Below, in pieces: positions 22,647 through 26,018 of a stretch of 52,371 bases of DNA. Where the stretch lies: positions 1 through 52,371 of the forward strand of contig JABHWJ010000012.1 in the NCBI GenBank assembly GCA_018657845.1. Direction: 5' to 3'. The notes under the pieces were generated by a model, which did not search any database, had not been told where the DNA came from, and saw only the letters and a list, made by a program, of their open reading frames with translations. Source of the stretch: Candidatus Woesearchaeota archaeon (GTDB taxonomy: Archaea; Nanobdellota; Nanobdellia; Woesearchaeales; GW2011-AR9). How positions within the stretch are numbered: the first letter of the stretch is position 1; each line of letters starts with the position of its first letter. Both the position numbers and the translations under genes were made by a program.

Positions 22647-23285
22647 ATGATTACCAAAGAACAAGTTCAAAAAGCAATCGAACAACTGAAACAAAATCCT
22701 AAGCGCAAGTTTTCTCAGTCTTATGATCTTATTATTAACTTAAAGAACATTTCCATTAAACAAAATCCTCTTGATTTCTTTACAACCATTCCTTATCCTA
22801 AGAAGCAGGTTAAAATCGCTGCTTTTGTTGGTATAGAACTTTCTTCTCAGGCAGAAAAATCTTGTGATTTAGTAATTCAAGAAACAGATTTTTCAAAATA
22901 TCAAGATAAAAAAGTTTCTAAAAAGTTAGCAGAAGAATACGATTATTTTATTGCTCAAGCAAATCTTATGCCTAAGGTAGCACAAAATTTTGGTAAATCT
23001 CTAGGAATAAAAGGAAAAATGCCTAACCCTAAATTGGGATGTGTTATTCCTCCAAATGCAAATATAAGTGATTTAGCCAAAAGGCTCCATTCTACTATTC
23101 GTTTAGTAGCTAAGAAAGCAACCAATCTTCAATGTCTTGTGGGAAAAGAAGACCAACCAGATGAAGAAGTCATTGACAATATAATTGCGGCATACAATGC
23201 TACTCTCAAACAAGTACCAAATGAAATTCAAAATATCAAAAACGTTCAATTAAAACTTACTATGAGTAAACCTGTAAATTTATAA
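22647..23285 (+). CDS. rpl1: 50S ribosomal protein L1
   Basis: RKFSQSYDLIINLK ... and the conserved rpl1-P0-rpl12 order. Confidence 0.92.
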   Translation: MITKEQVQKAIEQLKQNPKRKFSQSYDLIINLKNISIKQNPLDFFTTIPYPKKQVKIAAFVGIELSSQAEKSCDLVIQETDFSKYQDKKVSKKLAEEYDYFIAQANLMPKVAQNFGKSLGIKGKMPNPKLGCVIPPNANISDLAKRLHSTIRLVAKKATNLQCLVGKEDQPDEEVIDNIIAAYNATLKQVPNEIQNIKNVQLKLTMSKPVNL

Positions 23286-23286
23286 A

Positions 23287-24756
23287 ATGGTCTCTGAAGT
23301 AAAGAAAAAACTTGTACAAGAAATTACCAAGAAGATTAAAGAATATCCAGTAGTTGGTCTTGTCAACATGGAAAATCTTCCAGCTAAACAGCTTCAGATT
23401 ATGAGGGCTATTTTAGGCAAAAAAAATATTCTTATTGACATGGCTAGAAAGAAGCTACTTCAACTAGCTCTTAAAGAATCCAAACAAGAAAATATGGACC
23501 AGTTAACTGAGAAAATTAAAGGCATGCCTGCATTATTGTTTTCTAAAGAAAATCCATTTACTCTTTATTCTATCCTTCAAAAAAATAAATCTCCCGCACC
23601 AGCAAAAGCTAATCAAGAAGCTCCAAAGGACATTGTAGTTTCTGCTGGACCTACTACTTTTGCTCCAGGACCAATTATTTCGGAATTAGCTGAAGTAGGA
23701 ATTAAAACAAAAGTAGATAATGGAAAATTAGCTATCATTGATGATACTACTGTCGCTAAAGAAGGAGATCTTATTTCCACCAAACTTGCTGGAATTTTAA
23801 CCAGACTTAATATCCAACCAATGGAAATCGGTTTAAATATTGTTGCAGTTTGGGAAGGGGGATCAATTTTCACTCCTAAACATCTTCATATTGATAAAGA
23901 AGAATATCTTAATAATATTACTCAGGCTGCTCAGTGGGCTTTCAATCTATCTGTTGAATCAGCTTACCCAACTAAAGATAACATTGGACCACTATTACAA
24001 AAAGTATTCCAAGAATCTAAATCACTTTCATTAGAACATAATATCTTAACTGATTTAACTGCTGAAGAAATTTTGGAAAAAATAGAAAGAGAAGCTATTT
24101 CCCTAAAAGAAACTGCTAACGTCGAAGTAACAGAGAAACCAAAAGAAAAGCCAGCAGAAGAGAAACCAGAAGAAAAAGAACAACCTAAGGCAGAAGAACC
24201 TGTAGAAGAACCTAAGGTTGAAGAAAAACCTCAAGAAGAGCCTGCCGAAGAGAAACCAGCAGAAGAAAAAGAAGAACCCAAGGAAGAAAAGCAGGAAGAG
24301 AAAACTGAAGAACAACCTGAAGAAGCTGAAACTCCTGCTGAAGAAGAGAAACCAGCTGAAGAAAAACCAGCAGAAGAACCTAAGGTTGAAGAAAAACCTC
24401 AAGAAGAGCCTGTTGAAGAACCAGTTGAAGAAGAACCAGTAGAAGAGAAGAAAGAGCAACCAGAAGAAGCCCCTGCTGAAGAGAAACCAGAAGAAAAACC
24501 AGCAGAGAAAGAAGAACCTAAAGAAGCAATCCCTTCTGCGGAAGAAATGATCAAGGCTACTCAGGAAAAGTTTGCTCCTAAGGAAGAACCCAAAGAAGAA
24601 AGAAAAGAAGAGCCACAAGAAGTCCCTTCTGCAGCTGACCTTATAGCCGAAGAAAAAGAAACTGCAGAAAAAGAAAAGCCATCTCAAGAAATAGAAGAAG
24701 CCGAACAGCTTTTTGATAAGTTAAAAAAAGAAGGAACCTTGAGAAAGGAAAACTAA
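23287..24756 (+). CDS. rplP0: Ribosomal stalk protein P0 (L10), with an unusually long P/E/K-rich C-terminal extension
   Basis: The N-terminal ~275 aa are typical archaeal P0. From about 24110 onward, more than 200 aa are EEKPAEE / [11 protein letters not shown]-type low complexity. Confidence 0.9.
24205..24412 (+). repeat. Exact 40-nt direct repeat, 168 nt (56 codons) apart, inside the P0 extension
   Basis: gaagaacctaaggttgaagaaaaacctcaagaagagcctg occurs at 24205-24244 and again at 24373-24412. Confidence 0.85.
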
Positions 24757-24787: not shown

Positions 24788-25105
24788 ATGGAATATATAT
24801 ATGCTGCAATGCTTTTACACAAAGCAGGAAAAGAAATAAACGAAGATACTGTTAAAAAAGTATTAATCGGAGCTGGTGTCGAAGTTGACGAAGCCCGTGT
24901 TAAAGCTTTAATAGCTGCCCTTGAAGGTGTTGATATTGAAGAAGCCATCAAGAAAGCTGCTGTTGCTGCTCCAGTTGCTGCTGCACCCGCTGCTGCAGAA
25001 GGTGGAGATTCTAAAGCCGAAGAGAAGAAAGAAGAAAAATCTGCAGAAGAAGAAAAGAAAGCTGAAGAGTCAGCTGCTGCTGGTTTAGGCGCTTTATTCG
25101 GCTAA
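24788..25105 (+). CDS. rpl12: Ribosomal stalk protein P1 (L12)
   Basis: [20 protein letters not shown]-terminus, Ala/Glu hinge, canonical tail ...[17 protein letters not shown]. Confidence 0.9.
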
Positions 25106-25160: not shown

Positions 25161-26018
25161 ATGGAAGAAAATATTAATGAATTGCGAAAAGAATTTCAGC
25201 AAACGAAAAGAGACGTTTCTAGGTTGAGGTCTAACCTCAGCAAACTTAGTCAAGATAACAGAAAGATTTCTCTAGAATCTAAAGAGATCCGTTCTAAACT
25301 TTCTTCTAACAATCAACAGATTAAAAGATTAAAGAAAGAACGTGATGATTTCACTAAAAAAGTAAAAGAAACAAAAGAAAAAAGAGATAAATTAAACAAA
25401 GAAGTAAGGGAAAAGTCTTCAGATAAGAAAGAAATTGACCAAAAAAAGAAAGATCTTTTCGATAAGCTCGACGTCAAAGAAGATCCACGCCAGCTTAAAT
25501 CCCAAATAGAAAAATTAGAAACAAAAATAGAAACTGAACCTATGGGTTTTGAAAAAGAGAAACAAATAACTAAGCAAATCAAAGAATTAAAGAAAACTTA
25601 CAAGAAAATAGAAGCCGTGGGGGACGCATGGAAAGAAATAAATAATGCTTCCAAATTACTTTCTTCTTCTAGGAAGGCAGCAGAATCTGTTCATAAAGAA
25701 GTCCAAGATTTTGCTCGCCAATCCCAAGAAAAACACGAAGAGATGAAAGTCTTACTAAAAGAAAACAAATCTCTTAAAGAAAAAGAACAACCTTTTGCAG
25801 AAAAACTTCTTGAAATAAAAATAGAATTTGAGAAAGTAAAAAAAGAGTTAGATAAAAGTATTGAAAGATTCACTGAGTTAGGTAAGCATTTCACGAATGA
25901 AGAAGAAAAATCTTTCAAAGATAAAGTTAGAGAAAAAACCAAAGAAGTAAAAGAAAAAATGAAGAAAGGAAAAAAATTAAGCACAGAGGATATTCTTGCC
26001 TTTCAAGCTTCTAAATAA
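25161..26018 (+). CDS. Archaeal coiled-coil protein (COG1340-like)
   Basis: 285 aa, almost entirely K/E heptad-like sequence. Leaderless ATG about 24 nt from the TTATATTTATATT box. Confidence 0.55.
   Translation: MEENINELRKEFQQTKRDVSRLRSNLSKLSQDNRKISLESKEIRSKLSSNNQQIKRLKKERDDFTKKVKETKEKRDKLNKEVREKSSDKKEIDQKKKDLFDKLDVKEDPRQLKSQIEKLETKIETEPMGFEKEKQITKQIKELKKTYKKIEAVGDAWKEINNASKLLSSSRKAAESVHKEVQDFARQSQEKHEEMKVLLKENKSLKEKEQPFAEKLLEIKIEFEKVKKELDKSIERFTELGKHFTNEEEKSFKDKVREKTKEVKEKMKKGKKLSTEDILAFQASK

What the first reader, a model, noticed from the sequence alone, without database searches (positions are those of the whole stretch)
24110..24756. Stalk protein P0 carries a >200-aa P/E/K repeat extension and lacks the canonical C-terminal factor-binding tail
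After a normal P0 body, the protein continues with [42 protein letters not shown]... This stretch includes an exact 40-nt duplication 168 nt apart, which suggests recent slippage or duplication. The protein ends ...[22 protein letters not shown]. The adjacent P1/L12 ends with the canonical ...[10 protein letters not shown]. In archaea, P0 and P1 normally share that C-terminal peptide, which recruits aEF1A, aEF2 and aIF5B. This P0 seems to have replaced it, with only an LF dipeptide remaining, and has added a very long acidic spacer.
Basis: partly seen in the sequence, partly recalled or inferred. Interest (0 to 1): 0.55.

Follow-up and report, generated by a model that had tools for sequence, protein, structure and literature searches.

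The report
Stalk protein P0 with swapped tail
In this tiny-genome (DPANN-type) archaeon the ribosomal stalk anchor P0 has lost the usual factor-recruiting end peptide and instead carries a long floppy acidic arm tipped with a conserved short peptide module. In related species the same module sits on other ribosomal proteins and on the SRP receptor FtsY, so it looks like an undescribed ribosome-tethered docking peptide whose partner is unknown.

Summary
P0 (window 23287-24756, 489 aa) has a normal body (1-275), a 135-aa linker (E 44%, P 17%, K 16%) and a 79-aa end module. No canonical tail exists in any frame. P1 alone ends in [10 protein letters not shown].

It is not an artefact and not unique to this genome. 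Relatives' P0 is tail-less (about 280 aa), carries a variable arm ending in E.L[FYL]..L[KQ]K.G[TS]LR, or, in a few families, keeps the canonical tail.

New here:
- The end motif also terminates uL22. In 114 family genomes it sits on P0 in 28, on uL22 in 45, and on both in none.
- The upstream motifs (IPSAE.LI.ATKEKF; PSAE.L) also occur in the N-terminal region of FtsY (hhalign 97%, E 3e-11) and on eL14 and uS3 tails.
- A 48-nt stretch is shared almost exactly with the uS3 gene tail.

AlphaFold gives isolated helices and no fold.

Best reading: a lineage-specific, flexibly tethered docking peptide for an unknown partner, with GTPase recruitment left to the six P1 tails.

This scan has reported swapped or missing P0 tails before, on other Woesearchaeota genomes. 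Five literature searches found no description of them.

The parts
22647..23285 (+). uL1 gene. Its stop lies 1 nt before the P0 start, so this is the L1-P0-P1 operon.
   Evidence: Pfam Ribosomal_L1, E 9e-34; ORF list.
23287..24111 (+). P0 body, aa 1-275: rRNA-binding L10 domain, insertion domain and the helical spine that holds the P1 dimers.
   Evidence: PF00466 and PF17777. Aligns to 3A1Y chain G residues 4-276. 50-68% identical to relatives.
24112..24516 (+). Acidic E/P/K low-complexity linker, aa 276-410. Predicted disordered; its length is not conserved among relatives (0 to about 290 aa).
   Evidence: Composition and charge-hydropathy; degenerate 12/15/90-nt periodicities; relatives' tails.
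24204..24244 (+). Copy 1 of the exact 41-nt direct repeat.
   Evidence: Exhaustive exact-match scan.
24372..24412 (+). Copy 2 of the exact 41-nt repeat. The stretch 24359-24406 is 98% identical over 48 nt to the uS3 gene tail (G000:C31:29268-29315).
24529..24576 (+). Motif A ([16 protein letters not shown], aa 415-430), predicted helix. Shared with FtsY N-terminal regions and with eL14 and uS3 tails of relatives.
   Evidence: BLASTP to own FtsY 50% over 84 aa, E 4e-10; hhalign A1 vs A4 97.2%, E 3e-11; eL14 L056; uS3 L133; AF2 helix 6-17 of the module.
24625..24657 (+). Motif B ([11 protein letters not shown], aa 447-457), predicted helix. Shared with FtsY regions and with uL22 tails.
   Evidence: Alignments A1, A2 and A4; AF2 helix 37-50.
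24703..24744 (+). Motif C ([14 protein letters not shown], aa 473-486), the conserved terminal peptide. It is a helix ending at a Gly cap, and it also ends uL22 in 45 family genomes.
   Evidence: Invariant L..L.K.G.L(R) columns; family and global searches; AF2.
24788..25105 (+). P1 (aP1) gene with the canonical tail [10 protein letters not shown].
   Evidence: PF00428, E 1.8e-15. It is the only canonical tail in the assembly. It is conserved in all 30 relatives.
25161..26018 (+). Coiled-coil protein (DUF7121), conserved directly downstream of P1. Context only; no link to the tail is shown.
   Evidence: PF23435. tblastn finds it in 25 of 29 relatives' P0 loci whatever the tail state.

Best explanation
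P0 of this archaeon is a functional stalk anchor: the rRNA-binding domain, insertion domain and P1-binding spine are all intact. Its own copy of the factor-binding tail has been replaced. The replacement is a disordered acidic E/P/K linker of about 135 aa, followed by three short helical motifs (A: IPSAE.LI.ATKEKF; B: PSAE.L[IV]; C: E.L[FYL]..L[KQ]K.G[TS]LR at the very end). Inferred mechanism: the motifs are tethered docking peptides (SLiM/MoRF type) that hold an as yet unidentified partner near the ribosome. The architecture is the same as the canonical stalk tail, a floppy acidic arm plus a short amphipathic helix, but the specificity differs. Recruitment of aEF1A, aEF2 and aIF5B is left to the six canonical P1 tails. 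Three observations suggest the module works at the level of the whole ribosome and the co-translational targeting machinery, not specifically at the GTPase centre. Motif C sits on P0 or on uL22 but never on both. Motifs A and B also sit on eL14, on uS3 and in the N-terminal region of the SRP receptor FtsY. The linker length is free to vary. The low-complexity tails evolve quickly by duplication and by exchange between ribosomal-protein genes. Shown: the anatomy, the conservation, the distribution and the absence of a canonical tail. Inferred: that the module binds a partner, and that this partner is not a translational GTPase.
For: The body is intact and the tail is absent. Motif C is conserved at the C-terminus of P0 across genera and families while the linkers vary from 75 to 290 aa. 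In the family (114 genomes), 72 of the 73 genomes with a hit have exactly one. The module is on P0 in 27 genomes, plus 1 where a frameshift separates it from the body, on uL22 in 45 and on both in 0. This covers 17 versus 23 genera, and no genus is mixed. A search of 1.84 billion representatives found only 60 hits. By Pfam these are 33 uL22, 8 P0, and otherwise fragments or marginal matches, and the uL22 and P0 matches are C-terminal. Motifs A+B are homologous to FtsY N-terminal regions and also occur on eL14 and uS3 tails. AF2 predicts isolated helices at pLDDT 75-76 with pTM 0.30-0.38, which means no autonomous fold, as expected for binding motifs. All 30 relatives keep the P1 tail AAAGLG[AS]LFG, so canonical factor recruitment is still provided. 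A canonical archaeal stalk has seven equivalent tails (PMC7768734). Some P0s of the order carry 2-3 copies of motif C, as expected for a multivalent docking peptide.
Against: No partner has been identified and nothing was tested biochemically. 36 of the 103 family genomes with a complete P0 hit have a short P0 and no detectable module on any protein, so the module is dispensable. Conservation of a helix plus cap could have a purely structural reason. Related genomes are not independent, and the P0 tree is too poorly resolved to count switches. The assignment of the genome to Woesearchaeota comes from earlier scan notes only.
Confidence: 0.55

Rival explanations
1. Motif C is an alternative factor-binding tail. 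On this reading it is an amphipathic helix that still recruits one or more translational GTPases, or ABCE1, and so acts as a specialised seventh stalk tail.
For: It has the same architecture as the canonical tail: an acidic flexible arm plus a short helix with L/F/L hydrophobics. It sits on the stalk anchor in this genome. Some P0s carry several copies.
Against: In 45 family genomes the same motif is on uL22, which established ribosome structure places near the tunnel exit and far from the GTPase centre, while P0 there is tail-less. There is no sequence similarity to the P1 tail, and PF00428 does not match P0. Six canonical tails remain.
Confidence: 0.13
2. Motif C is a membrane-binding amphipathic helix, like the FtsY or MinD membrane-targeting sequence, that tethers ribosomes to the cytoplasmic membrane of a very small cell.
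For: In this genome the BLASTP alignment runs on into FtsY's own 'GLFGKLK' helix. Motifs A and B are shared with the FtsY N-terminal region, which carries MTS-like KKLFGLFKRKEK segments.
Against: The profile-profile alignment covers motifs A+B only, not C. A Heliquest-type discriminant for motif C is 0.2-1.3, and 0.2-0.6 for most uL22 versions. The FtsY segments score 1.55-1.71, against a lipid-binding threshold of about 1.34 that I recall from Heliquest. Net charge of the motif is about 0 to +3, and the arm it sits on is strongly acidic.
Confidence: 0.1
3. The terminal helix self-associates or pairs with a coiled-coil partner, linking ribosomes into dimers or clusters (hibernation or storage). 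One module per ribosome would then avoid network formation.
For: There is exactly one carrier per genome in 72 of 73 cases. The uL22 version is predicted as a single 37-residue helix. There is a weak, non-significant resemblance to the VASP tetramerisation helix (E 0.15). A conserved coiled-coil gene lies next to P1.
Against: The middle of the helix is purely charged, with no heptad core. The P0 version is broken by Pro. Some P0s carry 2-3 copies. The PDB match is not significant.
Confidence: 0.08
4. The extension has no specific function. On this reading it is one of many neutral or generic acidic low-complexity tails on ribosomal proteins of this lineage (a solubility or 'entropic bristle' effect), and the end motif is merely a helix cap.
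For: Acidic tails also occur on uS3, uL22, eL14, eL31, a 153-aa protein that looks like eS24 by eye (no NCBIfam match) and FtsY of this genome. About a third of family genomes lack the module. Tails exchange DNA.
Against: Motif C has invariant L, L, G and L and near-invariant K and R across two different carrier proteins and many genera, whereas the linkers keep only their composition. The either/or distribution on P0 and uL22 is hard to explain by drift.
Confidence: 0.1
5. The extension is an assembly or frameshift artefact, and a canonical tail is hidden in another frame.
For: Low-complexity repeats are prone to misassembly. One relative (G014) does show a frameshift in an A-run between the body and the tail.
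Against: There is a single open frame of 214 codons, while both other frames are full of stops and lack a tail. The frame ends in a motif conserved in many relatives. The identical protein is recorded on 8 contigs from three sources.
Confidence: 0.02

Closest known systems
Archaeal stalk anchor aP0 (uL10) of the heptameric aP0(aP1)2(aP1)2(aP1)2 stalk, e.g. Pyrococcus horikoshii (PDB 3A1Y) and P. furiosus (4V6U); PMC7768734
   Same: The L10 domain, the insertion domain and the spine region align over residues 2-270 (E 1e-64). The L1-P0-P1 operon is present. A flexible acidic region follows the spine.
   Different: It lacks the C-terminal peptide shared with P1, so the stalk has six canonical tails, not seven. 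The arm is about 214 aa, against roughly 55-60 aa after the spine in the 339-aa P. furiosus protein, and it ends in three unrelated conserved motifs.
Bacterial uL10, and the tail-less P0 of most relatives (about 280 aa, ending ...EANL)
   Same: The anchor protein has no factor-binding tail of its own. Factor recruitment is left to the dimeric partners (bL12 in bacteria, P1 here).
   Different: This P0 is not simply truncated. It carries a long arm with a conserved terminal module.
FtsY A-domain / SR-alpha linker (disordered acidic N-terminal region of the SRP receptor with short recognition and membrane-targeting elements; my own knowledge, not tested)
   Same: It is an acidic disordered region with embedded short helical motifs. 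Motifs A and B of the P0 tail are homologous to a segment of the FtsY N-terminal region in this genome and in relatives.
   Different: The P0 tail has no NG GTPase domain. Motif C is not part of the profile-level match. FtsY's own MTS-like helices score much higher for lipid binding.
uL22 with a C-terminal extension in the same family (e.g. L052, L058, L060)
   Same: The terminal module is the same: PSSAELL...VENLYEELQKKG[ST]LR (alignment A2; Pfam Ribosomal_L22).
   Different: The carrier protein and its place on the 50S differ. The uL22 version lacks motif A and is predicted as one continuous helix.

Membership tests
Archaeal P0 / uL10 (stalk anchor) | N-terminal L10 rRNA-binding domain (PF00466) | tested here: met
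   E 1.4e-20, residues 2-100. It is the only copy in the assembly.
Archaeal P0 / uL10 (stalk anchor) | Archaeal/eukaryotic insertion domain (PF17777) | tested here: met
   E 1.2e-15, residues 106-176.
Archaeal P0 / uL10 (stalk anchor) | C-terminal helical spine that binds three P1 dimers | tested here: inconclusive
   The sequence aligns through residue 276 of the 3A1Y construct, which contains the spine. Binding of P1 itself cannot be tested here.
Archaeal P0 / uL10 (stalk anchor) | C-terminal factor-binding peptide shared with P1 (G[LF]..LF[GD] end; PF00428-type) | tested here: not met
   There is no such motif in any frame and no PF00428 match on P0. The control P0s of Methanomethylicota and Nitrososphaerota do share it with P1.
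Archaeal P0 / uL10 (stalk anchor) | Gene order L1-P0-P1 | tested here: met
   the same order is seen in the relatives.
NCBIfam archaeal 50S L10 equivalogs (PRK04019 set) | Score above the curated cut-off | tested here: not met
   The best score is 265.8 bits against a cut-off of 331. The protein is a divergent member, but all top hits are archaeal L10.
Membrane-targeting amphipathic helix (FtsY/MinD type) | High hydrophobic moment with net positive charge (Heliquest-type D above about 1.34) | tested here: not met
   Motif C has D 0.6 in this P0 and 0.2-1.3 in relatives. FtsY segments score 1.55-1.71. This is a heuristic only.
SAP / HeH motif (considered because V..L.EEL.KKG.L resembles its first helix) | Match to the Pfam SAP model and presence of a second helix | tested here: not met
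   No SAP or related family appears even at E up to 10. The protein ends right after the Gly cap.

The most novel reading that the evidence does not exclude
These DPANN archaea have a second, previously unknown ribosome-tethered recruitment system, separate from the P-stalk tail. It consists of a small set of docking peptides on long acidic arms. The peptides can sit on P0, uL22, eL14 or uS3 and are shared with the SRP receptor FtsY. They would bring one common partner, for example a component of co-translational targeting or a lineage-specific hub protein, to the ribosome and to FtsY.
Probability: 0.35. Interest if true: 0.8.

Novelty: new variant of a known kind. Interest (0 to 1): 0.6.

Why it matters
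The archaeal and eukaryotic stalk is defined by multiple identical C-terminal peptides on P0 and P1/P2. Here a large uncultured lineage has given up the P0 copy and repeatedly replaced it with a different conserved peptide. That peptide appears on either of two ribosomal proteins that lie far apart on the 50S, and its companion motifs are shared with the SRP receptor. If the peptide recruits a partner, it shows how ribosomes of minimal cells acquire new tethered functions, and it gives a concrete peptide to use as bait. It is also a natural experiment showing that the seventh stalk tail is dispensable. For annotation, P0 lengths of 280-570 aa in these genomes are real and are not gene-calling errors.

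Tried and rejected
- Word-indexed search of the 5.8-billion protein set with the module alone found only the protein itself. The module is too short for that database.
- The genome-contig scan gave only three distant P0 loci. They were useful as canonical-tail controls.
- The ESM Atlas gave no usable feature hit, and its structure hits had TM below 0.4.
- Pfam at E up to 10 on the module gave only noise (DUF1015, TMA7 at 0.008, PPR).
- A PDB profile search gave only non-significant helices: a designed protein at E 0.018 and the VASP tetramerisation domain at E 0.15.
- Two weak global hits were proteins that carry the HNH_repeat domain (E about 1e-4). I judged these to be helical-pattern noise.
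- I considered a small in-frame hairpin mobile element (lead from e1-1887845) for the 41-nt repeat. Folds of -6.8 and -10.6 kcal/mol over 61 nt are unremarkable, and the third copy lies in another acidic tail. Tail-to-tail exchange is the simpler reading.
- The P0 tree meant to count P0-to-uL22 switches has only 1 well-supported inner branch out of 27, so no count is given.
- The A2 profile does not detect the 'A[QA]D[IL]L[KR][KQ]L.D.KI[KR]' tails on P0 in other orders of the class, so a relationship to motif C is only a visual impression.
Independent assemblies could only be inferred from the contig count.
- Structure searches of the AF2 models were not run, because single helices give meaningless matches.

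Full report
OBSERVATION. The + strand ORF at 23287-24756 encodes 489 aa. Pfam finds the L10 domain (residues 2-100) and the archaeal/eukaryotic insertion domain (106-176) and nothing beyond them. The first 270-275 residues align to P. horikoshii P0 (3A1Y, residues 4-276) and P. furiosus P0 (4V6U), so they include the spine that carries the P1 dimers. After residue 275 comes a 135-aa linker (E 44%, P 17%, K 16%, net charge -37, on the disordered side of the charge-hydropathy boundary) and then a 79-aa end region. The longest exact direct repeat is 41 nt, at 24204 and 24372, 168 nt apart. It lies inside a 147-nt pair at 72% identity and among degenerate 12/15/90-nt periodicities. The other two frames of the extension are full of stops. 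No G[LF]..LF[GD] end exists in any frame, and in the whole 0.86-Mb assembly (89% complete) only P1 (24788-25105) has that tail. The identical protein is recorded on 8 contigs from NCBI, JGI and ENA.

LINEAGE CONTEXT. Earlier notes of this scan call the genome a Woesearchaeota-type DPANN archaeon. I did not verify the name. In 30 relatives of the same family and order, every P1 ends AAAGLG[AS]LFG and no P0 does. Seventeen of those P0s stop within 4-14 residues of the spine. The others carry arms of 75-290 aa. Control P0s of Methanomethylicota and Nitrososphaerota share the tail with P1 as expected, and the canonical seven-tail stalk is described in PMC7768734. A wider sample corrects the impression of an order-wide loss. 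Eight of 40 further P0s do end in the canonical peptide: families f128, f68 and f47 of the same order, and one genome of another order. Loss or replacement of the P0 tail is therefore frequent but patchy in this class.

THE END MODULE. Long P0 tails of the window, of G013, G008 and G001, and of a genome from another family (G033) align over about 75 columns, giving three motifs:
- A: [DE][IL]PSAE.[LM]I.ATKEKF.
- B: P[ST]AE.L[IV].
- C: E.L[FYL]..L[KQ]K.G[TS]LR, at the very C-terminus.
Shorter P0 tails (G004, G024, G003) keep only motif C. Some P0s elsewhere in the order carry two or three copies of C. AlphaFold2 on the P0 module predicts three separate helices (6-17, 37-50, 55-70) with pLDDT 76 and pTM 0.30, and the final GTLRKEN is non-helical. 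The uL22 version is predicted as one 37-residue helix ending at the Gly (pLDDT 75, pTM 0.38). Neither is a compact domain.

THE SAME MODULE ON OTHER PROTEINS. A profile of P0 tails found hits in proteins of about 270 aa. These are uL22 (Pfam Ribosomal_L22) with a C-terminal arm ending EPSSAELL.RAQQKAAEL...VENLYEELQKKG[ST]LR, that is motifs B and C. I crossed three searches over the 114 genomes of the family: the tail profile A2, the P0 body and the uL22 body. Of the 73 genomes with a hit, 72 have exactly one.
- The hit is in P0 in 27 genomes, plus G014, where an A-run frameshift separates body and tail.
- The hit is in uL22 in 45 genomes; all 45 co-locate with the uL22 body.
- The hit is in both proteins in none.
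- 36 genomes with a short P0 have no detectable module.
This amounts to 17 genera against 23, with no mixed genus. Related genomes are not independent, and a P0 tree is too poorly resolved to count switches. In a library of 1.84 billion representative proteins the profile finds only 60 sequences at E <= 1e-3. By Pfam these are 33 uL22, 8 P0, and otherwise short fragments or marginal matches, and the uL22 and P0 matches lie at the C-terminus. In a 301-genome sample of the order, 40 genomes have a hit. That count includes five unpublished genomes (G233, G244, G317, G319, G321); without them it is 35 of 296. No sequence from those five was used.

LINK TO FtsY AND FURTHER CARRIERS. The last 84 residues of this P0 are 50% identical (composition-adjusted E 4e-10) to residues 278-354 of the genome's own FtsY (G000:C5:5822-7720; TIGR00064 above cut-off), just upstream of its N domain. 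FtsY proteins of other genera carry the same segment. Profile-profile comparison of the P0 and FtsY segments gives 97.2% probability and E 3e-11 over 48 columns, covering motifs A and B but not C. Motif A also sits at the end of an extended eL14 in G056. Motifs A and B sit at the end of uS3 in G013. In this genome, acidic tails without these motifs are present on uS3, uL22, eL14, eL31 and a 153-aa protein that looks like eS24 by eye but has no NCBIfam match. A 48-nt stretch of the P0 arm (24359-24406) is 98% identical to part of the uS3 tail on another contig. The tails therefore exchange sequence.

MECHANISM. What is shown: an intact stalk anchor, loss of its own factor-binding peptide, six canonical P1 tails retained, and a conserved terminal peptide module on an arm whose length is unconstrained. 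The module is carried by P0 or by uL22 but not by both, and parts of it are shared with eL14, uS3 and FtsY. What I infer (confidence about 0.55): the motifs are tethered docking peptides for a partner that is not one of the translational GTPases, acting at the level of the whole ribosome and possibly of co-translational targeting.

I considered five rivals:
- An alternative GTPase-binding tail. This is weakened by the uL22 location and by the lack of any similarity to the P1 tail.
- A membrane anchor. A Heliquest-type score for motif C is 0.2-1.3, against 1.55-1.71 for FtsY's own MTS-like helices.
- Self-association that links ribosomes. The only support is a non-significant VASP-like match.
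- A functionless acidic tail. This is contradicted by invariant L, L, G and L and near-invariant K and R positions across two carrier proteins.
- An artefact.

COMPARISON AND NOVELTY. The protein is a member of the aP0 family by domains, spine and operon. It fails one defining feature, the shared C-terminal peptide, and it scores below the NCBIfam equivalog cut-offs. Five full-text literature searches found no description of tail-less or tail-swapped P0 in DPANN archaea, nor of this motif. This scan has reported the phenomenon before on other Woesearchaeota genomes (e1-1883601, e1-906811, e1-937971, e1-4828637). I re-tested their core claims here and they hold. As far as those short notes show, three points add to them: the either/or distribution of motif C on P0 and uL22, the homology of motifs A and B with the FtsY N-terminal region, and the retention of the canonical tail in some families of the order.

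VERDICT. It is an ordinary lineage trait for this genome, but the trait itself is undescribed and mechanistically open. I class it as a new variant of a known kind, with interest 0.6.

Noticed in passing
G000:C5:5822-7720 (own genome, other contig; L032:1023-2918): The FtsY protein (632 aa) has a histidine-phosphatase domain (PF00300, 95 bits, residues 100-234) inserted in its acidic N-terminal region. It also has two copies of the 'FGKLK' N-terminal helix. G010's FtsY has the same phosphatase insert. G008's has an alpha/beta-hydrolase-like insert (GHSMGG) instead. Other relatives have acidic 'DISEEELERADKLIEETNKE' repeats.
   Followed up: partly
window 24359-24406 and G000:C31:29268-29315: 48 nt are 98% identical between the P0 arm and the acidic tail of the uS3 gene on another contig. 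This points to ectopic exchange between low-complexity tails of ribosomal-protein genes.
   Followed up: partly
window 25161-26018: A 285-aa coiled-coil protein (DUF7121, PF23435) lies directly after P1. It is conserved at that position in 25 of 29 relatives whatever their P0 tail type. Its function is unknown.
   Followed up: partly
G000:C33:5562-5765 (L136): uL11 of this genome lies in a 239-aa frame. It has an extra helical, charged C-terminal arm of about 75 aa (…LSAEELKELDEEKQRLQEELKEKR…), and its gene is not next to L1-P0-P1. This agrees with earlier scan notes on Woesearchaeota uL11.
   Followed up: no
L011 (G014:C36), about 2360-2570: P0 of this relative ends at 288 aa in an A-run, and the conserved tail (…AQELWEKLQKEGTLREKK) continues in another frame. 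This is either a homopolymer sequencing error or a genuine frameshift.
   Followed up: no
L110, L113, L115, L118, L122 (other orders of the same class): P0 tails in these genomes end in a different recurring peptide, A[QA]D[IL]L[KR][KQ]L[QT]D[EK]KI[KR]G... It looks like motif C by eye but is not detected by the motif C profile.
   Followed up: partly
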